A DNA stretch of 64,000 nt from Cirrosporium novae-zelandiae (GCA_026023565.1 JAPETS010000024.1:124001-188000), one strand, 5' to 3'; shown: positions 31,262 to 62,911, counted from the first letter of the stretch. The notes: generated by a model from the letters alone, not told the origin. Translations and numbers: made by a program.

Positions 31262-31692
31262 TATACCCTTTATATTTATATATTATAATCACTGCTTTTC
31301 CAAAGCAAGATGATTTGCTTTGCGCATCCGTAAAGCTGGATCTATAAGGCTAATGTGCGAACGGACTTGGGTTTCCATTCTGGTACCTTTAACTGGGATA
31401 AATGACAGCGGCAGGGTGGATCAGGGTCAAAAGGCCGGAGATCGACGTCAACGATCATGAGCAACCGAGGTTTTTAACGAAAACTAATCTGGAGAAAAGG
31501 TATCGTGGCCCGTAGTTATCCTTGACTCAGAGACTTAACTCTCAATATTTTTGATTCAGAAGAATATAAAACGAGAAAATCAATTGCAGAAATTACCATT
31601 GTCATATAAAATTAAAGCTCACGGATAGAAGGAAGTATATCCCCTTGGTCCTGCGTAGCTGCATCCAAATACGACCACCAACTGCGCCAGGC

Positions 31693-33377
31693 ATGTCTCG
31701 AGTGACCGCTACACCAAATCCCGCATCCTCCTCCTCTTCTTCTTCTTCAAGTCCATCCTCCTCGTCAGCACAAAATCCCTCCTCATCTACCCAAACCAAT
31801 CCTTCTACACGTCTTGCAGCAATATCAGGACATCTCAACATGGGTTCCGTCACTGCTTCCAGCTTCCCTTCCAATGTTGTTCCTCAGGCACCTGAAGACC
31901 CTCTCTTCGGTCTGATGGCAGCTTACCGCAAGGACACCAATGAGAAAAAGGTTGATTTAGGCATTGGTGCCTACAGAGATAACAATGCCAAACCCTGGGT
32001 ACTTCCAGTTGTAAAGAAGGTCAGTATTCAACACATTTCTCTCGAGAAAAGTAATGGCGGGGCCCCGCAAATGTTTGATTAGACCCTCATTTTACTGATA
32101 ACGTTGCGGTTAGGCCGATGAAATTCTACGAAACGACCCCAATCTGAACCATGAATACCTTCCCATCGCGGGTCTTGCAGACTTCACATCTGCGGCACAG
32201 AAACTGATTCTGGGAGCTTCAAGTCCGGCTATTGCAGAGAAGCGGGTATGTCCCCAATCGTTCATAGATGGCTCTCCACAGTGGCGGTGAGACTAACGCC
32301 AACCGCCCCCACCAGGTCGTAACTCTACAATCCATCTCGGGAACAGGAGCGGTGCATCTGGGTGCTCTCTTCCTTGCCAAATTCTATCCACGACCATCTG
32401 ACCAACCCGTCTACTTTTCCAACCCAACTTGGGCCAACCACAACCAAATCTTCAGCAATGTCCACCTCCCAATCAAGACATACCCGTACTTCTCCCCGCA
32501 AACCCGCGGCCTTGACTTCGATGGCATGCTCAGTACTATCTCCTCGGCGCCCGAAGGCAGCATCATCCTCCTGCACGCCTGCGCCCACAACCCCACCGGC
32601 GTGGACCCGACCCGCGACCAATGGAAACAAATTGCCCGCGTAGTTCGCCAACGAAAGCACTTCCCATTCTTCGACTGCGCCTACCAGGGCTTCGCCTCAG
32701 GGGACCTCGAAAACGACGCCTGGGCAATCCGCTACTTCGTCTCGGAAGGCTTCGAGCTCTGCGTCGCCCAGAGCTTCGCCAAGAACTTCGGCCTCTACGG
32801 CGAGCGCGCCGGCGCCTTCCACTTCGTCACCTCCCCCGCCCCCGACGCCCAAAACACCATCGCCCGCATCGCCAGTCAGCTTGCAATCCTGTCTCGGTCT
32901 GAAATCAGCAACCCGCCTGCGTACGGAGCCCGCATCGCCAGCACGGTTCTAAACGATGAGAAATTGTTCAAGGAGTGGCAGGAGAACCTGAAGCTGATGA
33001 GTGGGAGGATCATCAGCATGCGTGAGGCGTTGAGGAAGAAGCTGGAGGAGCTGGGTACCCCTGGCTCCTGGAAGCATATCACGGAGCAGATTGGCATGTT
33101 CAGCTATACGGGCCTTAATGAGGCGCAGGTTGCTAAGCTGCGAGAAGACGCTCACGTGTATATGGTAAGTCGAATCAAATATACCTCTTCTTACTTCCCC
33201 TCCATCCCCCCCTCTACCTCCCAAAATACACACACCCATCTCAATATACCAAACTCCTACTAACACTCCCCCCTCCAGACCAAAAACGGAAGAATTTCCA
33301 TGGCCGGCCTAAACACAAACAATGTAGAATACTTTGCCAAAGCCGTGGATAAAGTTGTTAGAGAAACACAGCAGTAG
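31693..33377 (+). CDS. AAT2: Aspartate aminotransferase (cytosolic type) with N-terminal extension containing a PTS2; 4 exons; second in-frame ATG at 31840
   Basis: PQAPEDPLFGL, KVDLGIGAYRD, HEYLPIAG, QSISGTGA, HACAHNPTGVDP, FFDCAYQGFASG, QSFAKNFGLYGERAG (PLP lysine) and GRISMAGLN motifs. Confidence 0.95.
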
Positions 33378-34569: not shown

Positions 34570-37414
34570 CTATGCCTGCACGATAATCCCATCCATGGCT
34601 GTACTCCCACCTCCAACATCCTGTTTCTGGCTGGCCGATCCCCCAAACACAAATGGATCTATACCTCCTCCTCCACTTCCACCATTCGATGAGTGCATCC
34701 CCTTAATCCATTCCATATCAAGCGTAAACCCACTGCTCTCGCCCTGTAGATTCGTCGGTACCCCGATACCATCACCACTCTCGGTAAATAGGTTTAGATT
34801 ACCTAGATCTTCCGTTTCATGATCCATGTTGATAAGGAGGTCAAAATCGAGACTGCTAGGGGGCATGGTATTGGGGTCTGAGGGGTCGTTGAAGTTATGG
34901 AAGAATTCCGCAAGGCCACCATTGTCGATAACATTGTTAGTGTTGGGATTGGTACTGAGGGAGGGTGAAGTGCTGGAGATGCAGTCTGGGAGGGTAGTGT
35001 CGTTTTGGTCGGATTGGGGGGGTGTGGTAGCGATGAGACTTGAGGGGTGGTGGTCGGTCATGGTGACATCGGGGATGGAATAGGAGGGTGTTGGGATGAC
35101 ATCTGGAGGGGGGGTGAGGGCGACTTGTTTCGGAATCGGTTGTGGCTGGGGTTGGGACATTGATCGCTGTGAATGATGCTGTTGATGTTGCGGTCGTTGT
35201 GGATGTTGTTGCTGATGCTGCTGCTGTTGAAACCCGATAAGAGATTGTAGTTGAATGCCTGCTTTCCGTATCGCCGCTTCTAGGAACTGTGTCCCGAAAT
35301 CAGCAGATGCGTAGATTTCTCTTAGGCGCTGCATGGCCTGCATGCATAGAAGGAAGCTATGAAGACTGTTCCGCCTCACTTCTTCATTCGATGATTTAAT
35401 ATCGAGAAGATGAATGATAATGGCGGGAAGCAGCACCGTGACACCGGTTGTAGGAAGGAAACGAATAAGTTCTAGACGCTGAAGATCACGAGCTATTCGA
35501 GTAATTTCCCGAGCCGCTTGTCGAACTTTATCACGGGAAACTTCGCGGAGACTACCATCAATGTTGGGAGCTTCCGTTGACCCAGAAGGAAGGACTTGAG
35601 GACGATGCAGAGCACTAATGGTGGTCCAGTAAACCATGTTTAGTAATCCTCGATGAAGGAAAAGAACCTCATCTCCTGGTTTCAGATTTTGAGGTGGTCC
35701 AACACTGTATCGCGTCAGATCAGGCATTTCGTCGAACCAGGTCTGTAGCTCAGTATCACAAGACTCGATTTCGTCAAGTTCAGAGCCAGTCTTCTTGGGA
35801 ACAAGCATCATCGTAGTGGCTGTGGAAACTCCAGGTGGATGGCTGCTTAGGACAGAATATTGTGCGGCAAGGACATGGGAAATACACAGACAGAGTTTAG
35901 CCTTCTGGATGCACATTACCGCTAATTGTTTTATCTGGTCGACATCTCTCGCGACTCTGCATTCTGTCGGTAAACAAGACATCTCTTCGGGTATCGGCTG
36001 GAACTGAAAGTCATCAAGTTCAAGCATTGGCACATCGAAATCTTCGCTCTTTATTCTCGTAGGCCGTCTCATTCCAAGGGCAATTAATCGATCTCGCATG
36101 AAACATGACCACCACATCCGCTTCCACAGACATCGTCGTTTGGGGTCCATATTTGTCTTGTCGGGGTTGCGATGGAGTCCAATCGTGTGTGCTAGTGAAA
36201 TTGCAACCCCCATCCAATGCCAGGTATCCTTTTGATCATCAGGCGTTTCATACCAGTAAGTCATCAGAAGGAGCGCTTGGACGAGCGCAATTCTGTCAAT
36301 CTCATAGTCAAAGTCATATAGCAACTGTGATAATCAGCAATGATCAAATACATAAAGTTAGATTGGAAGCATACTCTTGCTTTTTGGAAATAGATTTTCC
36401 GTGCTGCTTTTCTCGTCTCATATCCAGCTGCCTTGAGCCATTCTATATCAACATAGGCGGTTCCTGCAAACATGACCGCCTGGAACAAAAAGAGACTGAT
36501 GCGATTGGTACCGTCATTGGCTTCAATGGCGTTCAGAAAGTCATGAAGATCAAGGAGAGGCATATATGGATGAACATATTCCACATAACTCCGTAAGAGC
36601 TCATTTCGCAGTCCAATATCCGGGACAGTCAAGGCTCCCTTCTTCTCTAGGTATTCAATGTCATCGTTCTCGATCCGGCGAGGCAATGGCTGAATGTAGG
36701 CTGGTAATGAATTCGCAGGGCGCCTTGCGAATAGCATCTGCGGATAGAATGTTGTGCTTGGAGCTGGAACCGAGGTCGATGGCGTGCTGCTGCTTATGGT
36801 ACTAGCTGCAAGACCGGATTGGGATGATCGTCTGTCAAGGTGCTGACCCTGAGCTTGATCTAATGTTGTTTAGCGGCATAGTCATAAGCTGTAAGCCGTA
36901 CTCACATATCATATGCGGAACATGTGACCGCTGGTCATCCGACTCATAGGAGAAAGCCTCTGGTGATGGCGGAAAGAGGGGTTGGGCCAGTCCATCCAAT
37001 GGATTCAATTCACCAGCACGAAAAGGCTCTTTGAACTTGTCCATTGAAACGTCGGATACAGATCCATCCTGTGGGGTTTGCGGATCCTGCCGTGCAGGAG
37101 TAGTACTCTTGTTCATGTCCAAAGCACCAAATTTCCTACGTGAACTCTTAGTATCAATTCAATCAAGAGTCAAATAAAACCTACTTTCTCCTCTTCCCTT
37201 CGGTGACTATACACTCCACCTCATCGAGACGACAATTTGTACACGGAGCACCATGTTCCACCACATTACACCTAACCTTTCGCGCCCGACAACACTGACA
37301 CGCCTTTGATGCTCGTCGCTTTACTGCTCTTGCTTTACCGTCCGTCATCCCAGCGGCCGAAGCATTCCGCTTCTGCGGGTTTGTCGAAGTTTGGGTGGTT
37401 GATGATTGAGCCAT
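34570..37414 (-). CDS. farB: Zn(II)2Cys6 transcription factor FarB / cutinase transcription factor 1 beta, 4 exons
   Basis: KRRASKACQCCRARKVRCNVVEHGAPCTNCRLDEVEC zinc cluster. Fungal_trans domain with LYDFDYEIDRIALVQALLLMTYWYETPDDQKDTWHWMG and RLIALGMRRPTRIK. Confidence 0.9.
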
Positions 37415-40400: not shown

Positions 40401-40532
40401 AAGGAATTAATTCGGAATTCCGCACAAAAGTCCGGATATCAAAATTCATAAACTCACATTGTCAACTATTTCTACCCTTGATCACAACCAACCTTTTTTT
40501 TCTATAGAGGTGTCTAAGTTCCATATATTCAT

Positions 40533-41090
40533 TCAATACCCGTCCCTCCCCTTCACGACGCCATATGCTCCGCCCCCTTTCCTAAACATCTTCTTCGAAT
40601 CCCCCAAAATAGCTTCTGGCTTTTCCCATGCCGCAAAATAGCCACCTGACGTGTGTGTGTTCTCAAGTACCACTGGCCCCATCGCCCACCCGAACAACTT
40701 CGGCGTAACGTACAACTCCTTTGGAAAATACGCCAACGCCAACTTCACCTTTGGAATCCGCCCAAACGCCCGCTCTCGCGTATAGATGGTCCTCTCCCGC
40801 CTCTCACCAAAAGGCGTCGGCGTATCATTCGGCCCGATCGAATGTGTAGCCTCATAATAAATGCGCAAACTGGCCGCCGCAGGCCCTGCCTTGGAAAACC
40901 AGTAAATGGAAACCCGCAAGTCAAGATCTCGTCGTCAGTCCAGAGATAATCGTCTGTTTTAATCATGCAACTTTTCATATATTCAACGCCAGCAGTGCCA
41001 CAGGGCTGTCGGCTAGGGCGTAATCCCATTGTCTGTGGCTCCATGATACCCTGCTCGATGGCATATCCGTGTCGGGTGCCATAAATACCA
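40533..41090 (-). pseudogene. Microsomal-type epoxide hydrolase, C-terminal remnant with frameshifts
   Basis: Fragments GYAIEQG..PQTMG / YALADSPVALLA / IYEKLHD / TDDYLWTDDEILT / VSIYWFSKAGPAAASLRIYYE...YFPKEL...GGYFAAWEKPE switch frame several times. The catalytic His of GGHFAAWE reads Tyr, and the N-terminal half is not seen. Confidence 0.85.
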
Positions 41091-42328: not shown

Positions 42329-43430
42329 CTAATTCTGATTCGGGATAGAAAATCCTCTAGACATGAAATCGCTGCCCTTCAATTTCGCTTCCGCTGCTCT
42401 CTCTTTGTCTGACATGAATAGGCTTTGTATATTTTGGTTCCGGCCGAGCTTTCTTCGCTTGTTGCGTTCTTCTTGCTCTTCCATTACTTTTCGGGTGAGG
42501 GATGCGGTTGCGGCGTCTTTGATGCTGGATGAGGTGTGGTTGGAGTTTGTGGGGTCGGTGGTGGTGGTGGTGCCCTTGCTCTGGGTTGCTGTTGTCGATC
42601 CGGTAGTAGATGCGATGATAGCATTTTTTGATTCGCTCCTGTTCTTCTTTCGTTTCTTAGAGGTGGGTGCTTTTTTCAAGGAATGGGTGAGTCCCTCTTC
42701 TGTTAATTTTTCTATTCGTTTCTTGAGGCGGTCTTTCTCCTCTTCGGTGGTTGGGAGAATCGGGATTATATTTTCGGGCCTGTAAGGCTCGTTGCACTGT
42801 AGTAGGCCCGTCAGCGTTAGCATCTCGAAACTCCAACGGAGGAAAACTGTGGTAACACTTACCTGCAAACAAGTCTCGCTCTCCATCTCCTTTAAAGCCG
42901 CTTCCGAGAAAGCATGTCCGCAAGGTACAAGGTAAACAGCCTTGACGTGCGCACCTAGTATCTTCCCCGTAACGGGACAAACCCACCGCTGTCCCCTCTC
43001 CTCGCTCGTATCATCCTTCTTGGAGTCTTCATCTCCCGCCCCCGCAACCTCAAATTTCACCTCCACAATATCCCTCAGCCCCTTTACCCGTCCCATAAGC
43101 ACCTTTTCGCAGTCTTCCTTGCTTATCGCCATCTCGTTGTCATCTCCTGGTAGGAGGAATTGCAGCACCGCATCCTTGTTGTATAATACTCCTGACGAAT
43201 CTGAGACTACGGGTGCGGCGAGGGGTTTGTGCGACAGGGAACATTGCGACCAGGCATAGGCGAGGAGCTCGAGTTTTTTTTCTTTGGCTTCGGATGTAGA
43301 GAGAGGGCGAGCGGATTCTTTGACTAGTTCGCGACGAGTTGGGATGCTATATGAATTATATTAGTTTAATTGCCTTTTGTGTGCCGAGCGGCTACGGATT
43401 TAGAGCGTACCTCCCACCGTCATTACCCAT
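42329..43430 (-). CDS. RTF2: Replication termination factor Rtf2 (RING-like), 3 exons
   Basis: MGNDGGS|IPTRRELVKE start, WSQCSLSHKPL..PVVSDSSGVLYNKDAVLQFLL, WVCPVTG, LVPCGHAFS, CLQ|CNEPY and DFMSRGFSIP motifs. Confidence 0.94.
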
Positions 43431-48798: not shown

Positions 48799-51700
48799 TT
48801 ATAGCTTGCTGGTTCCAGAAGTCATCAACTCTGCTCCTGCACCCGCAATGCATAGCTTTCCTGTTTCAACGACCTTAGTCTGGAAGATAATCCTGTTTCC
48901 TTCCTTCCACATCTCTGTCCTGAGAGTTTGCCCTGGAATGACGGTTCCCGCAAAGCGTACTTTGATATTCTTGAAAGGCCCGAATTTTTGCAGGATATGT
49001 TTCGCCGAAATGCCGAAGAAACAGAGACCGTGCTGTTGATGTTAGTAATAATCATTAGATGGGATTCAAGTACTCACCAAAATAGGAGCCTTGAAACCTC
49101 CAACTTTAGCAAATTCAGGATCAACATGAAGAGGATTTCTGTCCCCACTCAACCGGTACAATGCTGCTTGCTCTTCTGTTGTCTTCTCCTCAACGACAAC
49201 GTCTGGGTTTCGCTTTGGTGCTTTATATACAGCAGTAGCATTGCCTCGATCTTCACCTTTCTTTGGCCCTCCGAAGCTCCCACTTCCACGAACAAAAATA
49301 GTTGACTCGTTATAGAAGACATCTTCGCCATTGGCATCCTTTGTGGTAGATCCAGATGATAGAATAGCGGCGGCACCTTTGTCAACGACCTCGATCAATT
49401 TGGGATATGAGATAAGCTTTCCAGATGTTGGAATTGGGAATTTTCGAATCTCAAGATATTGTTCACCGTGAAGCAACATCATGGGAGAGAAGTTTGGCAT
49501 GACATCATCCATATTAAAGGGAGCTGTGGCACCAAACTGTGGGATCACACCAAACGAAGGCAAGACCTGGAAGTTGTCCGATCCTTCATAGACCAGATCC
49601 AACTCAGTCCTCTTTGCACCAAGACCAAGATCTGAAGAATTAGTAATATTTCGTTGCTGCTAATAAGATCAACTTACTGTAGAGAATGGCATCCTTTTCA
49701 TCATATTCATAAGCAGTCCCTTCTGCCTTTGCATTCTTTGCTGCTTTAATGTTTTCCAAAATCTTTTTATTGCCTTCTTGGTCTGATTTGTTCGAAAAAT
49801 TGTTCATGACGCTTTGGAAGCTATCCTGGGCGGATTCTGGATGATCGGCTCGAGAGTCAAAGGTGACAATATCCTTCCATGCTTTAAGGACAGCTTCTGG
49901 AGTCAACTTAACATCAACTGGGAATCCATGTCCACCAGTTCTTTGCCATCTTGTCCTTGCTATCCAACCACTTCCAACTTCGAACAAACCTCCAGTAGGA
50001 GGTGGTGGCATTTTGTCTGAGCTAAGCAGAGCTACAAGAGGAGCAACATAATCGGGCTTGAAAGCCTGTACCATTTCCTCGGGCATGATGCTCCGAGTCA
50101 TATTCGTACCAGCGTTTGGAGCAATCGTATTTACCCAGATGTTGTACTTTGCACCTTCGCGGGCCAAAGCACGAGATAATCCAAGAATACCAAGTTTCTA
50201 AAAAAATCAATATGTTTTAATCAAAAAGGTATATAATTGGATGGTCTTACCGCTGCGGCATAATTTGCTTGTCCAAAGTTTCCATAGATGCCACTAGTGC
50301 TTGTAGTATTTACGACCCGACCATACTTTTGCTTAAGGAAATATGGCCATGCCGCTTTTGTCATCTTATAAGTGCCTCTGAGGTGAACGGCAAGTACAGG
50401 GTCCCATAGATTATCATCCATGTTCGTAAAAGCCTTGTCGCGCAATATTCCAGCATTATTGATTAGAATATCAACTCGGCCAAAGGCATCGATTGCTGCT
50501 TTAATCACCACATCGCCATCTTCGGCAGAAGCTTTGGAAGGCACTGCTTTACCCCCAATTTTCTGGATTTCTTGGACGACAGGCATAGGATCCATAAGAT
50601 CGTTGACAACTACGGAAGCGCCAAGCTTTGCAAAGAGAAGAGCATATGATCGACCCAGGCTGAACCGATTAGCATAGTCCAATACAGGGTCTGTAGGACT
50701 TACCCTCCACCCGCCCCAGTAATGACCGCAACTTTCCCTTTCAGGTCCACTGGCTCACCAGGATCATTACTCGATAAATTCTGGGCTTCTTCAAGAAGTT
50801 CCATGAAGTTTGCAGGTCCTTGGGGATAATCTGGCTTTGAAAAGTCGTTTACATCCTTCCATTTTTTGGCGATTGCGCTGGGAGTCAAGCTCGCATCTGT
50901 CTTGAGTAATCCACCTTTGGCCCGTTCCCATCGAAGTTTGGCAATGTGACCGCCTCCTACCTCGAAAATCGAGCCTGTCTCCTGCTTGTTTGTCGGGTGT
51001 ACAAGGACCGCAACCAGAGGCACAACCCATTCGGGTTTAAGATGTGCAAGAACATCAGGAGGCATGATAGTCTCGGTCATACGGCTAGCAGCTAGGGTTC
51101 ATCAGCGCTGTTTAACCATCAGTATATATGAACATACCAATTGGCGCAATGACATTGCAGAAAATATTATATTTATAACCTTCCTTAGCGAGGGTTTCTG
51201 TAAAGCCAACCTGAGAAAGTTTTGCAGCTGTGAAAATTAGCATAGCACAACTTAGAGCCCAAAGGATGCATACCGGAATAATTGCACTGGCCAAAATTCC
51301 CAAACAGTCCTGCTGCTGAAGCAGTATTGATGACCCGCCCATATTTCTGTTTTCTGAAATAAGGCCATGCAGCTTTTGTACACTGCAACCGTTAGTCCTG
51401 CAAAATCGAACAATAGTATGCCCAACCTTATATGGTCCCTTAACATGGACTTTGATGACAAGATCCCAATCTGCATCCGTCATGTTTTTGAAGCTAATAT
51501 CTCGAAGGATCCCAGCATTATTAATAAGCACATCGATTCGTCCATATGCCTTGATTGCTGTATCTATGATAGCTTCCCCATTCTCGACACTGTCGTAATT
51601 GGCAACTGCTTTACCCCCAGCAGCCTTAATTTCATCAACTACAATATCTGCAGCCTGAAAAGGTTGTTAGCGAGCTATTGTCTCGGACAAAAAATAACGA

Positions 51701-51866
51701 ATGCACAAACTTTTGATGATTTTCCTTCTCCTTGGGAAGATCCACCCAGATCATTCACAACTACATTTGCGCCTCTTGAACCGAAGAAAGTTGCATATGC
51801 TCTCCCCAGGCCTCCTCCAGCACCGGTAACAACGACTGTTTGGCCGTCGAAGCGAAGTTCAGACAT
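48799..51866 (-). CDS. FOX2: Peroxisomal multifunctional beta-oxidation enzyme (hydratase-dehydrogenase), multi-exon, C-terminal PTS1 SKL
   Basis: Two SDR domains ([25 protein letters not shown]) plus a hydratase-2 domain ([17 protein letters not shown]). Ends ...[13 protein letters not shown] with the stop at 48799-48801. Confidence 0.97.
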
Positions 51867-51968: not shown

Positions 51969-52055
51969 CCGAGGTGGAACGTACAAAGTTGATGCAGAAA
52001 ATTGTGACCTTTGTCTTACTTTGCAGCGGAGGTGGATGAGACGCTGATGCCGAGG
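51969..52055. promoter_or_regulatory. Two FarA/FarB-type CCGAGG (CCTCGG) elements in the FOX2 promoter
   Basis: CCGAGG at 51969-51974 and 52050-52055, about 100 and 185 bp upstream of the FOX2 ATG. CCTCGG is the established FarA/FarB core in Aspergillus. Confidence 0.7.
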
Positions 52056-52743: not shown

Positions 52744-53971
52744 ATGGCCATCATCGACGATAAATCAAATATTTGTGTATCGTTCATTCTCAAGGGGATC
52801 CAGGTCCATAAGGAGCGCTATGCTGCTGATTCAAATCCACCTCCATTCTTCCTTGGAGTTAATGGTATTCAGGGTGCAGGAAAGTCCACTTTGGTAGGCA
52901 TTTCTAATGATAGATTATTTGTATTATGGACTTGTCAAATTTCGAATTTCTCCAAAATGGGTTTTGACTATATTTCTAAATTTTATATTGTTCTTTGTAT
53001 TTCTAGAATGCCACGTTAATTGCTTTGAATGATATCATACAGTTCATCTATCAAAGTGCAGGTCAGATTTGTATGTTGATACTCAACTAAATTTTCATTT
53101 CTAGTTTTCTCCCCAAGTTTTCTAGTTCTCCTTCTTTCGGATTTTTTATAAAGCTGGAATAATCTTGCCAACTTAATATGTGCTTTACGTTGACCCTATT
53201 TAGGTCTCCACGTTATACAGCGTACTCCAGAGCGAACCTTATGGCCTAGCTACCGTTGTGTTATCAATTGATGACCTGTATTTAACCCATGCAGATCAAA
53301 AGCAGCTTGCATCCTCCAATTCAAGCAATCCACTGCTACAGCATCGTGGGCAGCCATCAACACATGACCTTGTCCTTGGGACCTCGGTATTCACGTCTCT
53401 TCGTCAGTATCTCCCTACAAAAATCCCACGGTATGACAAGTCTGCGTTCAATGGTCAAGGGGATAGAGTTGATGAGTCTGAATGGGACGTTGTGAATGCT
53501 CTCGGCCAGGAAAAAATTAAAGTAGTAATTTTTGAAGGCTGGTGTGTAGGATTCCGACCCTTGCAGCAAGATGTTATCGAAGCCAAATGGTTAGCTGCTA
53601 AAGAGGCACGAGAAAACGGTATATATATTGGCCAGCTTGGATACAATCGGTTGCAGGATATTATTGCTATTAATCAAGCTCTAAAAGGATATAATGTTCT
53701 TACAGACCAACTCGATGCTTTAATTCATATTGATGCAGAAGATCCTCAATATGTTTACCAGTGGCGTCTAGAGGCTGAACATGTTTTACATCGGACAAGA
53801 GGCTCTGGTATGACTAACGATGAAGTAAAACAATTTGTGGACGGCTATTATCCAGCGTACGAGGTATTCACAGAAACCCTTCGAGAGGGAATATTTAAAC
53901 CAGATATAGGAAGACAGTTAAGACTTGTTATTGGACAAGACCGAAAGATTAAACAAGTCCTAAAGGATTGA
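52744..53971 (+). CDS. TDA10: P-loop kinase, Tda10/D-glycerate 3-kinase-like; 2 exons (intron about 52894-53202)
   Basis: FFLGVNGIQGAGKSTL|V (Walker A), LSIDDLYLTH, LLQHRGQPSTHD, IPRYDKSAFNGQGDR, FEGWCVGF, YVYQWRLEAE and FVDGYYPAYE motifs. Confidence 0.85.
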
Positions 53972-54489: not shown

Positions 54490-55916
54490 ATGTCAAGCCA
54501 ATCACCATTCCCTGAACGTGTTAAAAGGCGAAGAATTCTCGAGAATGATAGTACTGCATCTACAAAACCTGACCAACTTCAGCCTATACTACAACGACTG
54601 ACAGAACTTGAAACTCGCGACAGAGAACGCGAGCTACAGATGAAAGAACTTTGTATTCGTGAGAAGAAACGAGAAATAGAGATGATGGAGCTTGAGATTC
54701 GCGACAAAAAGCGTGAAAACAACATCAAGGTTCTCGAAACTATGATACAGGATCAAAGATATAAAAGTATACATTTCAATTCATTGTTCAATTAGATCAA
54801 TCCTGAACAGTATATAGATAACGAACACTCCGTCACAAACGGATGGAATAATCTTGAACGTTCCACTTCTGTTACACTAGGCAGAACATTCCCTCGATGC
54901 CAAGCTATTGAGTGGTCGGTCAACAATGTATGGCTCTTAACTTGTTTTTATGTGATGGAGTTGCTAATGTTCGGTTAAACTGTGGTTGCTCAGCCTTCTC
55001 CATCTCGTGGTCGTGCTAAGCTGGCTTTATCTCCTGTCAACAGCAATGTACCAGAAATCAATGAAGTATCCGAAGAAGAAATGCCCTCCATACCTCAATC
55101 CACCAACTCCTCAATCATGCCATTACTTATTCGTCAGTTAACAGAAGTCGCAGACTCAATCTATCCCGAGCAAAGCTTTAACCTTCGTTTTCTGCGCAAA
55201 TTCTTGAACTGGGACTTAGCTGACTTGGATTGCTTCTGTCATGCCAAAGAAGATTCAGCCGAAATCCCTGTAGGGTTAATTGTGTCTGCTACAGCCAGTC
55301 AGCCGTGTTTACCCACCAAACCTGGCCAACATGGGGCAAAGTTGATTGGAGTTCTTTGTCGTAAACATGATCCAGATTTGCAGCAGAAATTTCCTTTGTT
55401 TATAGGAAAAGGAAGAGACAAGTATATTTATTTCGGAGAGTATCGTGAACCTAGTTTTCCGAACATACTTAGTCTCGAGGAAATGGCGAGACTCCCGGAA
55501 GAAGTGAAGCAAGGCATTTCCTATGAACTCTATACGCAATGTCGAAATTCAATGTCCGGATGCTGCTTTCAATTCCTCAAAGACACACTTTGGCCATACA
55601 CGATAGATGTCAATACAGGAGCTGCGCCCACCCAAGAATTGAGCGCAATTGGCAAGGATGTGAAGACATGGGACATCACAACGGATAAAAATATGTCAAA
55701 GTTGAAAAGCAGAGACTTTGAAGCCTTTCTCCAAGAGGTAAATAGGTCAATCCCGGCATTAATTGTATGCTATTCTGTAACTGACTATTTTGGTAGCCTG
55801 ACTCAAGCCCCAACCCTACCCTTCACCTTGGTTGGCAGTATCTTGAATGCATTGGCTACGATCAAGACTTCTACAACCGTTTGCTTGAAGGTCGTGTGAC
55901 CAATAACCGTATGTGA
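54490..55916 (+). CDS. Hypothetical protein with N-terminal coiled coil and C-terminal DUF6697-like domain; exon boundaries of the 5' part uncertain
   Basis: ORFs 54490-54795 and 54982-55899 lie on the same strand. LPTKPGQHGAKL...FPLFI...YIYFGEY motif; an intron at about 55738-55796 gives the terminal LGWQYLECIGYDQDFYNRLL...RM*. Confidence 0.55.
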
Positions 55917-56565
55917 TGATCTTGCAAGTGTATTGCTCACAAATGACTTTGGGGACTGCTCAAAATCTTTATAAGTATTTAGACTTAAGGTATAGGGATT
56001 TAACTTATAGCTTCCTCGATAATGGAATTTTGTTTGTTGTCTAGGTTACCTAATATGCTGATTCAGGGTTAGCGAATGGTGCTGGTATTAAAATCTGGAT
56101 TTTTATGCGATCAGTTTATTTTATAGATGGCAGTTGGTTGTAATAGCTCCTTTAATACAGGATAATTGAATAATTATACTTGTACAGTACAAGTACTTTC
56201 GAAGGTACAGTAGGTATGTAGATAGGGAGCATCGGAAAATACCGTGGGTTGACGTACGTGGGACCGAAGACCCTGATCTCCTGTACCACATGGAGGAAAA
56301 CCAAACGACCTCCTTGGTCCTTTCAGCTTCAACGTTTCTAGCCTCTCCCTTACCATTTCCTAAAATCCTTAGAATATTCTTTAGTTTCACTCACAATTAC
56401 ACATGAGCTTCCAAACACCAAGTTCAAGTTTGAAGAGCTAGATCATGGGAAAGCCATCTGGTATTCTATCAGATATAGGCCGTCCATTATTTTAGCTTTC
56501 TTTGCGCCTATCTCGCTCTCCATGCCACTATCTTATGCATCGACAACACACTGGCTGTTACGGCC

Positions 56566-58605
56566 ATGAACCCTGGCAGCTCTTTAAATATTCCTGCAGC
56601 CAGCACCTCAACCATTCGGCCTCGCGCTCGCAGACTCATATCAATTGATGATGAACTGTCCACGTTTCCTTCTACAAGAAACGGCGCATCCTCCGATTAC
56701 CGTGACAACGATGCGACGCTATTTCCTGACCGATCAAGATCACCCATACCTAGCAGGCATCCCTCACGATCAACATCAGCCTCCAATTTTAAGAATGCTG
56801 CAGCTGGGGGTATAGAACGACCTCTCGGAGGTCTGAGTTTAGGTGATGGGCGCACTTCTCCATCATTCGCAAGTGGATTATGGGAATCATGGTCATCGTT
56901 ACAAAGCATTGCCTCGACCGTTCTTGGTAGCGATATTCAACACGAGCAGAAGGATAAGTCAAAACCAAAGCCGAACGGAACGATGAAAGCCTTTCAACGA
57001 AACCAGTCATCGTTGCGGAATCATGTGCATTCGAACTCGAATCGTCCAGACAACTGGGGCCCTGCTGGGCTAGGTGATAATCAGATTGGGGTTGGATCAA
57101 AGGAAGAAACACAGGCTTTGATACTAGCACGAAAGAGGGAAGCTTTGCTCAATTCTGAAGATTACACGTATCCAGATTCCCGAGGGAATTACAAGAGGAG
57201 GATGTCTGATGACATACAAGCGGGGCCTATTCCACCATCAGTCGACGAAGATGGAGATGCTCTCATCTATGTCCATAAGGTGAAACCAGAGGATACGATG
57301 GCAGGGATTTTACTCAAATATGCCTGCCAGCCTGAAGCATTTCGAAAGGCCAATCGTATGTGGCCGAACGACAGTATCCAAACTCGGAGAACCGTAGTTC
57401 TACCAGTAGACGCATGCGCCGTGAAGGGGACTCCTGTTCCTGAGCCCGAGCCCGAACCCGGGCCTGCATTTGATCTCCTAGAGGAAGAACTTACAGGGGA
57501 ATCGATAGCGACACCTAAGCAAGAGCAATTCTCATGGGACTCTACGTTCAAACAAAACACACCGCCATCAACAAATCTGTCAACTTCTCCTTTCGATCTA
57601 CCACTACCACCCCGAAGTCGAAGAAGCAGCACGGCGTTATCCTCAACGATATCCTCGCGCCACACCGAAGACCCCTCCCCACCTTGGACGCACGATTCAT
57701 GGGTCCAACTTCCCAACCAACCCTCAGCCGTAGAAATCGCACGCTTGCCCCGTCGCAGTCTCGGCTACTTCCCCCCGTCCCGTCGAAAATCAGTCACCTT
57801 CTCTGATATCAACACGGCACCCACCAACTCCCTCGACCTTCCCCGATCTCAAGTCCGACAATTCCAGCAATCCCACCAGCGCTTCCGCTCCCACTCACCT
57901 CATCCATCGTCATCGTCCAGCCACGCTTACCGCTCTTCTATATCAGCCTCAGCCTCAAAAACCCAGCCCCCAACCCCCTCCTCCCTCACCTCCACCCCGG
58001 TCTCCTCATCCCACCTCCGCCGCCACCACCACAACCGCAGCATCTCCCTCTCGCTCGCACTCACGGGACCCGGCGGCGTGGGAACCCTCTCAGGAAACCG
58101 CACCCCAACCCCCGGCCCCTCCCAAGATAGTCTAAACCGCTTCGCAGAAAAACACCTCCCATCGTTAACCCTCCCCAAAGAATCTAACCACGACCACAAC
58201 ATCGAGGACTTAAATACGGACATGAACATAGATATCGGAAGCTGGGTTAAGAAAGTCGCTAAGAGGATGACAACCGCAAATAGCAGGAGCAGGGAAAATA
58301 GTATTATTGGCGGCGGAGCGGGGAATCTAAGTCGGTATCCCCACCGCAGGGAAGGCGAGGAGGAACCGGTGGGTGATCTGATTGAGTTGGATATAGCGCC
58401 TGGGGGTTGTCGGGAGCTGGAAGTGGGACTTGACTATGAACATAATTTGGATGCTAGATTTCCACCGCCGTCGTTATCGGGGGTAGGAGTAGGGACAGGA
58501 AGGGGTGGTGCGAAAGCCATTAGTGTTAGTGCTAGTGTTAGTAGGCGTGGAAGTTTTAGTACCAGTACCAGTACTAAAAATAAGGGGAAGGCGCGGTTGA
58601 TTTGA
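56566..58605 (+). CDS. Intracellular LysM-domain protein, otherwise Ser/Pro-rich and disordered; single exon
   Basis: YVHKVKPEDTMAGILLKYACQPEAFRKANRMWPNDSIQTRRTVVLP is a LysM. Conserved WTHDSWV and LGYFPPSRRKS blocks; no signal peptide. Confidence 0.85.
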   Translation: MNPGSSLNIPAASTSTIRPRARRLISIDDELSTFPSTRNGASSDYRDNDATLFPDRSRSPIPSRHPSRSTSASNFKNAAAGGIERPLGGLSLGDGRTSPSFASGLWESWSSLQSIASTVLGSDIQHEQKDKSKPKPNGTMKAFQRNQSSLRNHVHSNSNRPDNWGPAGLGDNQIGVGSKEETQALILARKREALLNSEDYTYPDSRGNYKRRMSDDIQAGPIPPSVDEDGDALIYVHKVKPEDTMAGILLKYACQPEAFRKANRMWPNDSIQTRRTVVLPVDACAVKGTPVPEPEPEPGPAFDLLEEELTGESIATPKQEQFSWDSTFKQNTPPSTNLSTSPFDLPLPPRSRRSSTALSSTISSRHTEDPSPPWTHDSWVQLPNQPSAVEIARLPRRSLGYFPPSRRKSVTFSDINTAPTNSLDLPRSQVRQFQQSHQRFRSHSPHPSSSSSHAYRSSISASASKTQPPTPSSLTSTPVSSSHLRRHHHNRSISLSLALTGPGGVGTLSGNRTPTPGPSQDSLNRFAEKHLPSLTLPKESNHDHNIEDLNTDMNIDIGSWVKKVAKRMTTANSRSRENSIIGGGAGNLSRYPHRREGEEEPVGDLIELDIAPGGCRELEVGLDYEHNLDARFPPPSLSGVGVGTGRGGAKAISVSASVSRRGSFSTSTSTKNKGKARLI

Positions 58606-59437: not shown

Positions 59438-62400
59438 TTAAACAAGTTCAACCCATTTCGGGGATGTTGACATTCATGCCAGTTGCGTTTAGGTCGCCAT
59501 TGATGCCGAAGAATTGAAACCTATTGGTAATGAAATAGCATTCAAACCATTAGCATATATATAATTTTAACCAAAAAAAGTATATAATAATCAATCCCCA
59601 GGCAGTAGTTACACACAAATGAAACCCCAAGAAGGAACAACGTACCAATCTTCTACATTCAGCGTAGGAGGGATCATACCTTGCCCGCCTCTACTACTGG
59701 TACTCCACGAGTCCTCTGGACTCTGACCTTCCATCGCTCCTGGACCATTGGTCAACCCGGGATCAATTGCATGCTGCTGCTGTGACTGCTGTGGCTGCGA
59801 AGCATGTTGCCAATTTTGGGCATGCTGCGATTGATGCTGTTGCTGTGGCATCATTTGTGACGGCATTCCACCCATTGGAGCTTGGGGTGGCATTCCTCCA
59901 ATGGGACTATCATGTGGACCACGATGTGGGATTTGGTGTGGTGAGGGATTGTGCATTTGTGCCTGTAGGTTCTGAACTCCAGGCGGAGCGGCTTGCATTG
60001 GATGCTGTCCGGCCATTTGGAGTTGCGGGTCCAGAGGCTGCGGGACAGGAGAGGGGAAATGTGAAAGAGACATATCTGCCCCTTCAGGAAAGAGCTGGTC
60101 AGGTTGGAAGTTCTCCCATAGTGATTGCGAAATTGGTGGTGAATTGCGAGTCACGAGATAGAACTCCGGAGGTGTACCTGGCACAGAGTAGGAGTGGTTG
60201 AAAGGGGTTGTAGGGCGTGTTTGGCCCTGGTGGTTTCCGGTCATGAAGGCATCGGAGCTGTGCTGGCGGATATTGGGGGACTGATGAGGGAGACCCATTG
60301 AAGATGAGCCTAGCATTTCTCTTGTAGAGGGTTGGTTAGTTGGACTTTGAGGTCGAGAACGTTCGTATGAAACCTGAGGAGCAGGAGGCCCGTTGGTAAA
60401 TCCCATCTCCATATCATCAAATTTCCGCTTGGGTGGGTCAGCAGACCGCTTCTGAAATCCACCGAGGCTGTTGAAGGTATTATGGGTGTTCTGCTTGGAC
60501 TTCTTGTGTCTTGTCCCTGCCGCTTTTTGGAAGCGTTCCTCCAGAACTTTATTGCCTAGAATAGATTCAAAGAGTGTGTGGACCATCTTGGCAGCCAACC
60601 ACACTTTGGAGACCTTCTTCAAAGCGTCCATGCATATTCGAAGCTTGTTCTGAACTTCAGTTATAACCTGGGGTATTGATGATCGCATTTGGTATACGTG
60701 CATAATCAATGCAGAAAAGAGGCTGTAGATGATAAAGGCTGGCGCATAGTTGAGCTCATTATGTGTCTCCAAGCACTCTATAATTGAGGTTATCATGGCA
60801 GCTGCTTGAAATGCGATTGTCCGCGAAGGATAGGCCACATCCTCTGGAGTAGGGCCATGGTTAGTTGTGGCTGGAGGCATATGTGCTCGATGAAGAAGAC
60901 ACAAAGTAGTACTGGTTATATGATTAGCTAGGGGTAGAAGAGCTGAAATAGTGAAAGAGACTTACTAATAGTTAGCATGCAATAACGCAGACCAAAAATG
61001 GTGTTCTTCCTTGACCCAGAAGACTTCCTTTGGACAATTCTGAAGCCAGTCTGCCAACGCCATATCACTATGGGTCAAATCAAGGGCACTCGTTCGCCGA
61101 GCCTTTGAAGCAACCGAATATTGTTGAGAGAGTACCAACCCCATGATCTCACAGAGTCTAAGATATTGTAAGAAAAACTGAACGTGAACAGGATCCGGAG
61201 GATAATCCGCCGGATAGCCCTCTTCATCATCGATGAAATCGTCTTCAGTCACCATTTCGACGTCAGAGTCATCTGTGTTGATATGAACGGGCCTACCAAG
61301 GGCAACAGCTACAGATCTATCCCGCGTGAATAGCGTCCACCAAATTCGCTTCCATAACCGCTTGTCAGCCTTACTTAACTGTGAACCTTCCACGCTACCA
61401 ATTGTTAGATATCAGTTAATTGAAATCGAGAGGGTACAAACCTCCGATGCATTCCTGATCCTTGGGCGACAACTAATGCCACCCTGCTCCAGTAAAATAC
61501 GTTTTTAGTTACGTCTAAAGCTGTGTCAGCATGCTTCACATTCATCTTTGATCCTTCTGACGGAATGTCTGGCTGACCTTCGGGTCCTTCCCAATACCAA
61601 CCCATGAGAATCAAAGACTGAACTATCGTGACTCGATCATCTTCATAGTTAGCATCGTAAAGAGCCTTTGCTCGCTTATAGAAAGTCATCGCAGCAGGAG
61701 TCGTTGAGCCGCTTGCATCCATTAATTGCGGATTCGTACAGACTCTGGAGCCGGCAAGGAGCATGGCCTGTAGTAGTAGAAGAGATGGTGGGTTTTTGGA
61801 ATCCTGATACCGTCTCATAAATCGACTTCGATTGACGATTGGGACAACTGGAGCGACCCATTTGAAATATGATTCTATCAATTCATCACATAGTTCTCGT
61901 GGAGGGAGTAAAAAGGCTCCTCTTTGTTTTAATATTTCAATCTCAATTTGATCTAACTCATCCAGCCGTGCTCTTGATCCTCGAATATTTTCAGGAAGAG
62001 GATAATGAACGACATCTGAACTTCCATGTCGGTCCTGTACTAGTAGAGAGAGATTCGAGGATTCGCCTAGGTATGCGACTCTTCCGGCTTCTTTGATAGG
62101 AGCACGTGCAAATTTCGGTTTCATCAATGAACCATAGACGGGATCATTTCCGTTTGGTGGCGGAGGCGGCGCTTGCATATCTGGAAGGGATGCACTCGGC
62201 GGAGCGGTTGGAGGAGTGTAGAGAGAGGCATTGCTCCTAGATGAAAGTATTTGGGTTGCATCTCGGGATGGTGCGGTAGAAGGCGTGGATTCGCTTCGTT
62301 CACTGTGATGCAACGTAATGAGTGTCTATCGACGTCAATATCAAAGTGGTCTCTAATGGTCTATACCTTTGGTCATCTTTGATTTTGGTCTGTGTTTTCT

Positions 62401-62911
62401 TTCTCTTGGGAGTTGGAATTCGACATTCGATGGAAAAGGCTACGCAATTGGTGCACGGGACGCCTAGACTGGCTGCATCGCAGCGTACCTGCATCAGGAT
62501 GATAAGTTAGAAACGTCATGCCAAAATGTAAAAAGCAATGCGATGATTGGCTGGGGCTCACCTTTCTGGCATGACAGGTCTATCGTGTTGCGACAATTTG
62601 AGCGATTAGTACTTATTTTCATCTATATCTGTAGACCGAGGTGCCGAGGCATTCTGGTAATGAACGACTTGTCGCGTCTATCGTGAAAAATAAAAGCTTA
62701 CCTCGCAAGCTTTTGATGCACGTTGCCTGATTGGAAACTGCGTCAGTTTATCCAAGAATCTTGGAAGAATATATATAGACGCGCCCTACCTTCTGAAGCT
62801 GGGATGACCTGCGGTTTGCGACGGTGGTGCAGGCGCAGGATGCGACCCAGCGGCACCATTTTCTTGTGAAGTGTGGCCGTTGGATGGAAATGTCATGTTC
62901 TCCGCTGCCAT
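59438..62911 (-). CDS. farA: Zn(II)2Cys6 transcription factor FarA / cutinase transcription factor 1 alpha, about 9 exons including 25- and 18-nt micro-exons
   Basis: Spliced HPSFRR|QRASKACE|TCHARK|VRCDAASLGVPCTNCVAFSIECRIPTPKRKK, then LMKPKFARAPIKEAGRVAYLGESSNL, KRAKALYDANYEDDRVTIVQ, LWKRIWWTLFTRDRSVAVALGRP, and C-terminal TLNVEDW|FQFFGING. Confidence 0.95.

What the first reader, a model, noticed from the sequence alone, without database searches (positions are those of the whole stretch)
31465..62911. Both fatty-acid regulators (farB, farA), their target FOX2 and a peroxisome-targeted aminotransferase are physically linked
Seen: farB (34570-37414), FOX2 (48799-51866) and farA (59438-62911) are all on the minus strand within about 28 kb, and a PTS2-bearing aspartate aminotransferase abuts farB. 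CCGAGG occurs twice upstream of FOX2, once upstream of the aminotransferase (31465-31470) and twice in a farA intron. Established: FarA/FarB (CTF1 alpha/beta) activate beta-oxidation and peroxisome genes via CCTCGG, and peroxisomal malate/aspartate shuttle enzymes can reoxidise beta-oxidation NADH. Inference: this may be a loose regulator-plus-target cluster for peroxisomal fatty-acid catabolism. I do not recall such a cluster being described, but unrelated genes (RTF2, tRNA, TDA10, LysM) are interspersed, so chance mesosynteny is a real alternative.
Basis: partly seen in the sequence, partly recalled or inferred. Interest (0 to 1): 0.75.

Follow-up and report, generated by a model that had tools for sequence, protein, structure and literature searches.

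The report
Old farA–FOX2 gene neighbourhood, newly joined by farB
In this fungus the two regulators of fat breakdown, a key fat-burning enzyme and a likely peroxisomal aminotransferase lie within 31 kb, but only the pairing of one regulator (farA) with the enzyme (FOX2) recurs in other fungi, so this is a small inherited gene neighbourhood and not a four-gene cluster.

Summary
The genes are real. A database source names the contig Cirrosporium novae-zelandiae. A tree puts the two Zn2Cys6 genes in the FarB/Ctf1B and FarA clades. FOX2 has the full MFE-2 architecture and ends in -SKL. The aminotransferase is a cytosolic type with a 49-residue N-terminal extension carrying a PTS2-like nonapeptide.

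The claimed CCTCGG sites exist, but the motif occurs at chance frequency: 21 sites against 21.7 expected. No tRNA was found.

The four-gene arrangement is not conserved. farB shares a contig with farA in 1 of 9 species and with FOX2 in 1 of 9, and the one is this genome each time. It is unlinked by gene number in six model fungi.

farA and FOX2 do recur together. They lie 3-9 gene models apart in 11 Teloschistaceae assemblies, 6 locus numbers apart in Aspergillus fumigatus and 7 apart in A. niger. They are not close in Massariosphaeria, Piccolia, A. nidulans, Magnaporthe or Neurospora. An unrelated LysM gene also stays beside farA.

My verdict is an inherited microsyntenic block, with farB and the aminotransferase as lineage-specific neighbours. 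Selection for linkage is not shown. I found no paper noting farA-FOX2 linkage. Interest is moderate.

The parts
31465..31470 (-). single CCTCGG (reads CCGAGG on +), 228 nt upstream of the aminotransferase ATG
31693..33377 (+). Cytosolic-type aspartate aminotransferase. ATG1 is at 31693. The PTS2-like nonapeptide is at residues 40-48. A second in-frame ATG (Met50) at 31840 is where homologues' N-termini align. Exon 1 ends at 32019. There is no PTS1 (the protein ends ...TQQ).
   Evidence: Pfam Aminotran_1_2 7e-69. Best solved relatives are cytoplasmic AATs: 1ajr 1.9e-102, yeast 1yaa 2.7e-93. Sequence and frames.
34570..37414 (-). farB (CTF1-beta/Ctf1B orthologue), 899 aa, with Zn_clus and Fungal_trans domains
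   Evidence: Zn_clus 21.7 bits, Fungal_trans 9e-41. Tree: FarB/Ctf1B clade, SH-aLRT 100.
42329..43360 (-). RTF2 RING-finger gene (unrelated, interspersed)
   Evidence: Pfam Rtf2 1.1e-48
48799..51866 (-). FOX2 / peroxisomal multifunctional enzyme type 2, 895 aa: two SDR domains, hydratase-2 N domain, MaoC domain, C-terminal -SKL
51969..52055 (-). two CCTCGG sites in sense orientation, 103 and 184 nt upstream of the FOX2 ATG, in the 1.3-kb spacer shared with the divergent glycerate-kinase-like gene
53204..53971 (+). D-glycerate 3-kinase / TDA10-like gene (main exon), divergent from FOX2
   Evidence: PDB 6ckg 6e-40, 7xpc 1.1e-37, 1odf 9.2e-25. Atlas leads to PRK-type kinases.
54979..55899 (+). 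DUF6697 gene
   Evidence: Pfam 4.5e-08
56479..58605 (+). LysM-domain gene next to the 3' end of farA. A homologue also sits next to farA in Teloschistes.
   Evidence: Pfam LysM 7e-05. The C-terminal part of fused Teloschistes models P0365/P0368 matches 56665-58308 at 35-37% identity, E 8e-68 and 2e-66.
59448..62911 (-). farA (CTF1-alpha/FarA orthologue). Exon 1 is 62911-62790 and exon 2 is 62726-62702. An 18-nt micro-exon lies at 62579-62562. Exon 4 runs from 62488. The stop is at 59448-59450.
   Evidence: Tree: FarA clade with A. nidulans FarA, SH-aLRT 100.
62636..62649 (-). two CCTCGG copies 2 nt apart, in sense orientation, inside farA intron 2 (62701-62580)

Best explanation
The span is an ordinary stretch of chromosome holding an old, inherited five-gene block: FOX2, a glycerate-3-kinase-like gene, a DUF6697 gene, a LysM gene and farA. 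In it the long-chain fatty-acid regulator FarA sits four gene models from its best-known target. In this lineage the paralogous regulator farB and a PTS2-tagged cytosolic-type aspartate aminotransferase have come to lie 11-15 kb to one side.

The regulon works in trans. FarA and FarB bind CCTCGG in target promoters wherever those genes lie. FOX2 has two sites within 190 nt of its ATG and the aminotransferase has one, so both are plausible targets. Fox2 enters peroxisomes through its -SKL end. The aminotransferase probably comes in two forms: a PTS2-bearing peroxisomal form from ATG1 and a cytosolic form from Met50.

Shown: the gene identities, the positions, the motifs, and the presence or absence of linkage in other genomes. 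Inferred: regulation by FarA/FarB, peroxisomal import, two isoforms, and that the farA-FOX2 proximity persists through slow rearrangement and not through selection.
For: Identity:
- The tree splits FarA and FarB clades at SH-aLRT 100. P0121 groups with A. nidulans FarA and P0001 groups with proteins named Ctf1B.
- FOX2 domain architecture and -SKL end.

farA-FOX2 proximity, by locus tags or accessions on contigs of equal length:
- Cirrosporium: 4 apart (KAI9732565 and ...569).
- Teloschistaceae: Haloplaca sp. 1 is 4 apart and Squamulea squamosa 3. Gyalolechia gomerana, Teloschistes exilis, T. cf. exilis, T. peruensis and T. hypoglaucus are each 4 apart. T. chrysophthalmus is 4 in two assemblies and T. 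flavicans 9 in two assemblies.
- A. fumigatus: Afu4g03900 (mfp) and Afu4g03960 (farA) (PMC2481287, passages).
- A. niger: NRRL3_00665 (FarA) and NRRL3_00672 (FoxA) (PMC10512302, passages).

Block retention:
- A LysM gene homologous to 56665-58308 is fused behind farA in two Teloschistes gene models.

farB elsewhere:
These are Pleopsidium, Malbranchea, Helicocarpus, Coccidioides, A. clavatus, A. taichungensis, Paecilomyces variotii and A. varians.
- farB and FOX2 differ in 8 of 9 (eight Dothideomycetes).
- Gene numbers are far apart in six model species.

Motif:
- Frequency in the window is at chance.
- A. niger foxA carries a site at -225 and A. flavus foxA at -924, so a Far site before FOX2 is expected wherever the gene lies.
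Against: - No background rate of neighbour retention between these classes could be computed here. Selection on the farA-FOX2 pair therefore cannot be excluded.
- Two specified genes landing within four models of each other by chance in three classes is very unlikely, so shared ancestry is needed, and retention over such distances is itself unusual.
- All 11 lichen assemblies belong to one family and count as one lineage.
- Equal contig length and consecutive tags are proxies for position. I did not see DNA from any other fungus.
- Having both paralogous regulators plus a target within 28 kb is improbable a priori, roughly 1e-3 for farA-farB alone in a genome of tens of Mb (my estimate).
- The tandem CCTCGG pair in a farA intron is mildly unusual: 4.5% of simulations give such a pair anywhere in the window.
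- Whether accession order equals gene order in Massariosphaeria is assumed.
Confidence: 0.6

Rival explanations
1. A selected regulator-plus-target cluster. Proximity of farA (and here also farB) to FOX2 and a peroxisomal aminotransferase is kept because it helps co-expression, for example through a shared chromatin domain or local autoregulation via the intronic CCTCGG pair, or because it helps co-inheritance of the fatty-acid programme.
For: - farA-FOX2 lie within 3-9 models in three classes.
- FOX2 has two CCTCGG within 190 nt of its ATG. The chance of two or more in a given 300 nt at the window's rate is about 0.005 (my calculation).
- A tandem CCTCGG pair lies in farA intron 2.
- All four genes fit one physiological theme, and two carry peroxisomal signals.
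Against: - farB is not linked to farA or FOX2 in any other genome examined: 0 of 8 and 0 of 8 by contig, and 0 of 6 by gene number.
- Linkage is lost without apparent cost. A. nidulans has AN7050 and AN7111. Massariosphaeria has 75 accessions between the two genes. M. oryzae and N. crassa also lack it.
- Unrelated genes are interspersed, and one of them (LysM) is retained too.
- The motif is at chance frequency, and none lies within 1 kb upstream of farA or farB.
- FarA regulates genes located elsewhere: mfp, pex11 and icl in A. fumigatus.
Confidence: 0.2
2. Retained ancestral linkage of paralogues. farA and farB arose by a local duplication, and Cirrosporium alone still shows them on one strand 22 kb apart. 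Other lineages separated them.
For: - Both genes are on the minus strand, 22 kb apart.
- They are paralogues of one family.
- Xylobotryomycetes is a separate, poorly sampled class.
Against: - The paralogues are very old. They share 28-29% identity over about 370 residues, and the clades sit on long branches.
- They are unlinked in every Eurotiomycete, Lecanoromycete and Sordariomycete species compared, and farB is also unlinked from FOX2 in eight Dothideomycetes. This would need several independent separations.
- Unrelated genes and FOX2 lie between them.
Confidence: 0.12
3. Assembly artefact. The contig is metagenome-assembled, and the join between the farB side and the FOX2/farA side is chimeric.
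For: - The source labels the record a MAG.
- The 11.4 kb between farB and FOX2 holds few recognisable genes.
Against: - Composition is even across the span, with GC 0.38-0.49 in 2-kb bins.
- All three proteins are recorded on one 537,849-bp contig with consecutive accessions.
- The FOX2-farA part is reproduced in other taxa.
Confidence: 0.04

Closest known systems
FarA/FarB (CTF1-alpha/CTF1-beta, Far1/Far2) fatty-acid regulon of filamentous ascomycetes
   Same: Both regulators are present with Zn2Cys6 and Fungal_trans domains. Each is an orthologue by tree. The CCTCGG motif stands before FOX2, as reported for A. niger and A. flavus foxA.
   Different: In the described species the regulon is dispersed, and farA and farB lie on different chromosomes or far apart by gene number. 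Here both flank FOX2 within 28 kb. Nothing about binding or induction was tested here.
Fungal catabolic gene clusters that carry their own Zn2Cys6 activator (e.g. A. nidulans alc, prn and N. crassa qa clusters; recalled, not checked here)
   Same: A Zn2Cys6 activator lies a few genes from a structural gene it controls, and that proximity is kept in several lineages.
   Different: Those activators are pathway-specific and their clusters are compact and made of pathway genes. FarA is a wide-domain regulator with many unlinked targets. Only one target is nearby, and unrelated genes lie between.
hcsA-katA neighbour pair of the peroxisomal CoA-dependent beta-oxidative pathway in Eurotiomycetes
   Same: It is a two-gene neighbourhood of peroxisomal beta-oxidation genes. 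It is kept in 37 of 50 Eurotiomycetes according to PMC8140964 (passage).
   Different: That pair is two enzymes lying directly side by side. Here it is a regulator and an enzyme, 3-9 models apart.
Mesosynteny / residual microsynteny in Pezizomycotina (recalled concept)
   Same: Gene content is kept with local inversion. The LysM gene is next to farA in both lineages but on the other strand here. In Massariosphaeria the two genes share a scaffold but lie 75 accessions apart.
   Different: Retention within four models across three classes is tighter than the concept predicts for a typical pair. I could not quantify this.
Peroxisomal aspartate aminotransferases: plant PTS2 type (aspartate aminotransferase is listed among Arabidopsis PTS2 protein families in PMC7710942) and yeast Aat2 with a C-terminal PTS1 (recalled)
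   Same: A cytosolic-type AAT carries a peroxisomal signal. The nonapeptide fits [RK]-[LVI]-x5-[HQ]-[LAF] with Ile at position 5.
   Different: The signal sits at residues 40-48, at the edge of the usual first 40. It lies behind a serine-rich tract and is followed two residues later by a second Met. There is no PTS1. Import is untested.

Membership tests
FarA (CTF1-alpha) orthologue group | N-terminal Zn2Cys6 binuclear cluster | tested here: met
   The deposited model scores only 16.8 bits against a cut-off of 21, because it skips an 18-nt micro-exon at 62579-62562. With that exon the six-Cys cluster is complete and reads like A. nidulans FarA.
FarA (CTF1-alpha) orthologue group | Fungal_trans (PF04082) middle domain, and grouping with characterised FarA and not with FarB | tested here: met
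   PF04082 at 1.6e-41. The protein is 52% identical to A. nidulans FarA Q1WD26 over the C-terminal exon. It falls in the FarA clade at SH-aLRT 100 in a quick IQ-TREE of 26 rows. The careful search did not finish.
FarA (CTF1-alpha) orthologue group | Binds CCTCGG and is needed for induction by long-chain fatty acids | not testable with these tools
   Sites are present before FOX2 and the aminotransferase, but no binding or expression data exist. No RNA run was listed.
FarB (CTF1-beta) orthologue group | Zn2Cys6 and Fungal_trans domains, and grouping with Ctf1B/CTF1-beta | tested here: met
   Zn_clus 21.7 bits and PF04082 at 9e-41. Clade with A. clavatus and P. digitatum 'Ctf1B' and Lasiodiplodia 'CTF1 beta', SH-aLRT 100.
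Fox2 / fungal peroxisomal multifunctional enzyme type 2 | Two tandem SDR dehydrogenase domains, then hydratase-2 (MFE-2_hydrat-2_N plus MaoC) | tested here: met
   adh_short in two stretches, PF22622 at 2.4e-47, PF01575 at 9e-35. 72-81% identity to 13 fungal Fox2 proteins.
Fox2 / fungal peroxisomal multifunctional enzyme type 2 | C-terminal PTS1 | tested here: met
   The protein ends in -SKL. Six relatives end in -AKL, -SKL, -PKL, -GKL or -EKL. K894 and L895 are invariant in 14 sequences.
PTS2-targeted peroxisomal protein | Nonapeptide [RK]-[LVI]-x5-[HQ]-[LAF] with a hydrophobic residue in the middle, near the N-terminus (generally within the first 40 residues) | tested here: met
   RLAAISGHL at residues 40-48 of the ATG1 form. 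Consensus taken from PMC7710942 (passages). The position is borderline.
PTS2-targeted peroxisomal protein | Signal conserved in orthologues | tested here: inconclusive
   Only 1 of 150 cluster representatives (P0395) has a PTS2-like motif before the conserved core. Representatives are one per 50%-identity cluster, many are N-terminally cut, and close orthologues were not sampled.
PTS2-targeted peroxisomal protein | Pex7-dependent import; use of ATG1 | not testable with these tools
   No RNA holder was listed.
Fungal metabolic/catabolic gene cluster | Functionally related genes contiguous or nearly so | tested here: inconclusive
   Four related genes lie in 31 kb, with at least five unrelated or unknown genes among them: RTF2, a glycerate-kinase-like gene, DUF6697, LysM and the ORF 47756-48373.
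Fungal metabolic/catabolic gene cluster | Arrangement conserved across species beyond background synteny | tested here: not met
   For the four-gene set, farB is linked only in this genome: 1 of 9 and 1 of 9 by contig, and 0 of 6 by gene number. For the farA-FOX2 pair alone, proximity recurs in three classes, but no background rate was available.
Fungal metabolic/catabolic gene cluster | Co-regulation of members | not testable with these tools
   No expression data. Motif counts are at chance for the window.

The most novel reading that the evidence does not exclude
farA and FOX2 form a regulator-target gene pair held together by selection since before the split of Eurotiomycetes, Lecanoromycetes and Xylobotryomycetes. 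Cirrosporium shows its fullest form: both Far paralogues, Fox2 and a dual-start PTS2 aspartate aminotransferase in one domain. The tandem CCTCGG pair in a farA intron would serve as a local autoregulatory element. This would be the first wide-domain fungal regulator shown to be kept beside a target.
Probability: 0.15. Interest if true: 0.6.

Novelty: new member of a known kind. Interest (0 to 1): 0.4.

Why it matters
If the farA-FOX2 proximity is kept more often than matched neighbour pairs, clustering of activator and target would not be confined to pathway-specific regulators. It would then extend to a global lipid regulator. That would give a simple test case for whether position matters for induction: relocate FOX2 or farA in Aspergillus.

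There are practical by-products. The deposited farA model lacks a micro-exon, which makes its DNA-binding domain look broken. The aminotransferase is a candidate for dual cytosolic and peroxisomal targeting from two in-frame starts, which bears on how fungal peroxisomes reoxidise NADH.

If the proximity is only residual synteny, the finding is ordinary.

Tried and rejected
- Whole genome: none is held for this window, so no in-genome survey of other Far targets was possible.
- Metagenome scan with a 14-sequence Fox2 alignment and 10-kb flanks. The patterns chosen hit generic SDR genes. Of the 80 loci kept, 0 held a farA or farB match. Only L001-L004 looked like fungal Fox2 (57-68% identity), and two of those sit at a contig start. 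This is uninformative and is not evidence against linkage.
- Search of 1.84 billion cluster representatives with the aminotransferase exon. It was too coarse to test PTS2 conservation.
- RNA evidence: no RNA holder was listed.
- Earlier findings of the scan: nothing relevant by place, by sequence or by words.
- Hynes et al. 2006 (PMC1459687), the founding FarA/FarB paper, is not held. It may give map positions, and I could not see it.
- Searches for a printed statement of farA-foxA linkage:
  - Term searches for proximity, adjacent, synten, gene cluster and neighbour inside PMC10512302, PMC8140964 and PMC7155255 found no such statement.
  - PMC5068947 reports colinearity of the far regions among Aspergillus species. 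It does not mention foxA there in the passages I saw.
  - Supplements were not opened.
- A search for fungal PTS2 aspartate aminotransferase found 3 papers. Neither of the 2 listed concerns one, judging by title and abstract.
- TDA10 was first sought at 47756-48373. Pfam, NCBIfam, PDB and the Atlas gave no family there. The TDA10-like gene is at 53204-53971 instead.
- An equal contig length of 2,935 bp for one farB hit and one FOX2 hit was dismissed. A contig that short cannot hold both genes.
- Coniosporium was dropped from the farB-FOX2 count because the two proteins come from different assemblies.

Full report
WHAT IS THERE

The window is fungal, with GC 0.38-0.51 in 2-kb bins. The deposited proteins that match it at 99-100% are named by their source as a metagenome-assembled Cirrosporium novae-zelandiae. 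They lie on one contig of 537,849 bp. NCBI taxonomy places this species in the class Xylobotryomycetes. No whole genome is held for the window.

Gene map of the span, from ORFs, Pfam and mapping of the deposited proteins:

| Position (strand) | Gene |
|---|---|
| 31693-33377 (+) | aspartate aminotransferase |
| 34570-37414 (-) | farB |
| 42329-43360 (-) | RTF2 |
| 47756-48373 (+) | unassigned ORF |
| 48799-51866 (-) | FOX2 |
| 53204-53971 (+) | D-glycerate-3-kinase/TDA10-like gene |
| 54979-55899 (+) | DUF6697 gene |
| 56479-58605 (+) | LysM gene |
| 59448-62911 (-) | farA |

Accessions run KAI9732562 (farB)...565 (FOX2) and ...569 (farA). So two annotated proteins lie between farB and FOX2, and three between FOX2 and farA. 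The other 29 kb of the window hold housekeeping-type genes and no further peroxisomal gene.

GENE IDENTITIES

- A 26-row tree has two clades, each at SH-aLRT 100. This is the quick IQ-TREE; the careful search did not finish.
  - The 34570-37414 product sits with proteins named Ctf1B or CTF1-beta.
  - The 59448-62911 product sits with A. nidulans FarA and T. stipitatus Ctf1A.
- farB has Zn_clus (21.7 bits) and Fungal_trans domains.
- The deposited farA model looks as if its zinc cluster were broken (16.8 bits, below the cut-off). Reading the DNA shows an 18-nt micro-exon at 62579-62562, between canonical GT..AG introns, which the model skipped. With it the cluster matches A. nidulans FarA.
- FOX2 has two SDR domains, the hydratase-2 N domain and a MaoC domain, and ends in -SKL.
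- The aminotransferase is nearest to cytoplasmic AATs among solved structures: pig 1ajr at 1.9e-102 and yeast 1yaa at 2.7e-93.
  - It has no PTS1.
  - Its first ATG (31693) adds 49 residues ahead of Met50 (31840). Met50 is where two homologues' N-termini (P0386 and P0384, of four tested) begin to align.
  - Residues 40-48, RLAAISGHL, fit the PTS2 pattern [RK]-[LVI]-x5-[HQ]-[LAF] with a hydrophobic residue in the middle. The pattern is taken from PMC7710942 (passages).
  - Two in-frame starts around a targeting signal suggest a peroxisomal form and a cytosolic form. This is inference.
  - Conservation could not be judged. Only 1 of 150 distant cluster representatives shows a similar motif.

THE MOTIF

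The numbers are:

- The window holds 21 sites against 21.67 +/- 4.25 expected.
- 12 of the 21 lie in the span, which is 49% of the window.
- No site lies within 1 kb upstream of farA or farB.
- The two sites 103 and 184 nt before the FOX2 ATG are what one expects of a known Far target. A. niger foxA has one at -225 and A. flavus foxA at -924. At the window's rate, two or more in a given 300 nt has a probability of about 0.005 (my calculation).
- The pair 2 nt apart in farA intron 2 is mildly unusual. A pair within 10 bp appeared anywhere in the window in 18 of 400 Markov-1 simulations.

None of this bears on linkage, because the regulators act in trans.

No tRNA was found by ARAGORN or by Rfam, even at E<=1.

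IS THE LINKAGE CONSERVED?

No fungal genomes could be searched directly. I therefore used three proxies:

- the length of the contig recorded for each protein
- consecutive locus tags or accessions
- positional gene numbers printed in papers

farB against farA. Nine species occur in both top-120 lists. The contig is the same only in Cirrosporium (1 of 9). It differs in Pleopsidium flavum, Malbranchea cinnamomea, Helicocarpus griseus, Coccidioides immitis, Aspergillus clavatus, A. taichungensis, A. varians and Paecilomyces variotii.

farB against FOX2. Again 1 of 9. It differs in eight Dothideomycetes: Lepidopterella, Mytilinidion, Westerdykella, Delitschia, Lophiostoma, Sporormia, Lojkania and Lindgomyces. 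Coniosporium was dropped because the two proteins come from different assemblies.

Gene numbers from papers (passages read):

| Species | farA | farB |
|---|---|---|
| A. fumigatus | Afu4g03960 | Afu8g04130, Afu1g00410 |
| A. niger | NRRL3_00665 | NRRL3_06630 |
| A. nidulans | AN7050 | AN1425 |
| M. oryzae | MGG_01836 | MGG_08199 |
| N. crassa | NCU08000 | NCU03643 |
| F. oxysporum | FOXG_04196 | FOXG_01610 |

So farB's place here is, so far, unique to this genome.

farA against FOX2 gives a different picture.

Same contig and close tags:
- Cirrosporium, 4 apart.
- Haloplaca sp. 1, Q9174_002767 and _002771.
- Squamulea squamosa, Q9213_001595 and _001598.
- Gyalolechia gomerana, Q9188_001836 and _001840.
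- Teloschistes exilis, T. cf. exilis, T. peruensis and T. hypoglaucus, 4 apart each.
- T. chrysophthalmus, 4 apart in two assemblies.
- T. flavicans, 9 apart in two assemblies.

In print:
- A. fumigatus mfp is Afu4g03900 and farA is Afu4g03960.
- A. niger FarA is NRRL3_00665 and FoxA is NRRL3_00672.

Not close:
- Massariosphaeria phaeospora: same 2.44-Mb scaffold, with accessions 75 apart.
- Piccolia ochrophora: contigs of 190,408 and 191,469 bp.
- A. nidulans: AN7050 and AN7111.
- M. oryzae: MGG_01836 and MGG_06148.
- N. crassa: NCU08000 and NCU08828.

That locus numbers follow gene order in these annotations is recalled knowledge, not something I tested.

The lichen assemblies all belong to one family. 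The independent lineages with the neighbourhood are therefore three: Xylobotryomycetes, Teloschistaceae and Aspergillus.

BLOCK OR CLUSTER?

- Two Teloschistes gene models fuse farA to a downstream LysM protein. That protein matches the window's LysM gene at 35-37% identity over 516-572 residues, E 8e-68 and 2e-66.
- An unrelated gene has therefore stayed beside farA in both lineages. It lies on the opposite strand here, which means a local inversion.
- The usual spacing of four tags in Teloschistaceae equals the three intervening genes seen here.
- This pattern is what plain retention of a small ancestral block predicts. It does not single out the regulator-target pair.
- Retention of a 3-9-gene spacing across classes is nonetheless tighter than I would expect for an average pair. 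I could not compute the background.

READING

Most likely (0.6): an inherited FOX2...LysM-farA block. farB and the PTS2 aminotransferase have become neighbours only in this lineage. All four genes belong to a regulon that works in trans.

Rivals:
- a selected regulator-target cluster (0.2)
- retained ancestral linkage of the farA and farB paralogues (0.12)

LITERATURE

I found no statement that farA and foxA/FOX2 are neighbours.

- Full-text searches.
- Term searches within three A. niger papers.
- The A. flavus paper reports colinearity of the far regions within Aspergillus only.
- The founding 2006 paper is not held, and supplements were not opened, so a prior mention cannot be excluded.

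VERDICT

The four-gene cluster is not conserved. The farA-FOX2 neighbourhood is real, recurs in three classes, and to my searches is undescribed. Its meaning remains open until it is compared with background synteny.

Noticed in passing
window 62562-62579 (-): The deposited farA protein model skips an 18-nt micro-exon that encodes six residues inside the Zn2Cys6 cluster. This makes the DNA-binding domain score below Pfam's cut-off. The DNA has clean GT..AG borders, and the restored reading matches A. nidulans FarA.
   Followed up: yes
window 62636-62649 (-), farA intron 2: Two CCTCGG copies lie 2 nt apart in sense orientation inside a 122-nt intron between exons of the DNA-binding domain. A pair this close arises anywhere in the window in 4.5% of simulations. 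It could be an autoregulatory site or chance.
   Followed up: partly
window 31693-31842 (+): The aminotransferase has two in-frame ATGs 147 nt apart, with the PTS2-like nonapeptide ending two residues before the second Met. ATG2 has a stronger context (A at -3, G at +4) than ATG1 (G at -3, T at +4). Leaky scanning or alternative transcript starts could give peroxisomal and cytosolic forms.
   Followed up: partly
window 53204-53971 (+): A D-glycerate 3-kinase / yeast 1odf-like gene is transcribed divergently from FOX2. It shares the 1.3-kb spacer that holds the two CCTCGG sites.
   Followed up: partly
proteins P0365, P0368, P0161, P0206 (Teloschistaceae): Several deposited lichen-fungus farA models are fusions with neighbours: a LysM gene behind farA in Teloschistes, and an alpha/beta-hydrolase in front of it in Squamulea and cf. 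Caloplaca. The hydrolase part has no match in the window, which ends 1.1 kb upstream of farA.
   Followed up: partly
proteins P0216-P0220, P0224, P0235-P0237 (Colletotrichum): Colletotrichum farA models are 1216-1417 aa, with a long N-terminal extension of unknown nature. P0216 has no Pfam match there, and P0216 and P0235 have no match there in the window.
   Followed up: no
window 37415-42328 and 43361-47755: About 9 kb between farB, RTF2 and FOX2 hold only short ORFs with no Pfam family at E<=0.05. The deposited annotation has just two proteins between farB and FOX2.
   Followed up: partly
window 1439-3025 (+): There is a third Zn2Cys6 transcription factor (Zn_clus plus Fungal_trans_2) in the window. 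By domain type it is unrelated to the Far family.
   Followed up: no
protein P0395 (unnamed source): This is the only one of 150 distant aminotransferase representatives with a PTS2-like nonapeptide (residues 17-25) ahead of the conserved core. It hints that PTS2-tagged AATs occur elsewhere.
   Followed up: no
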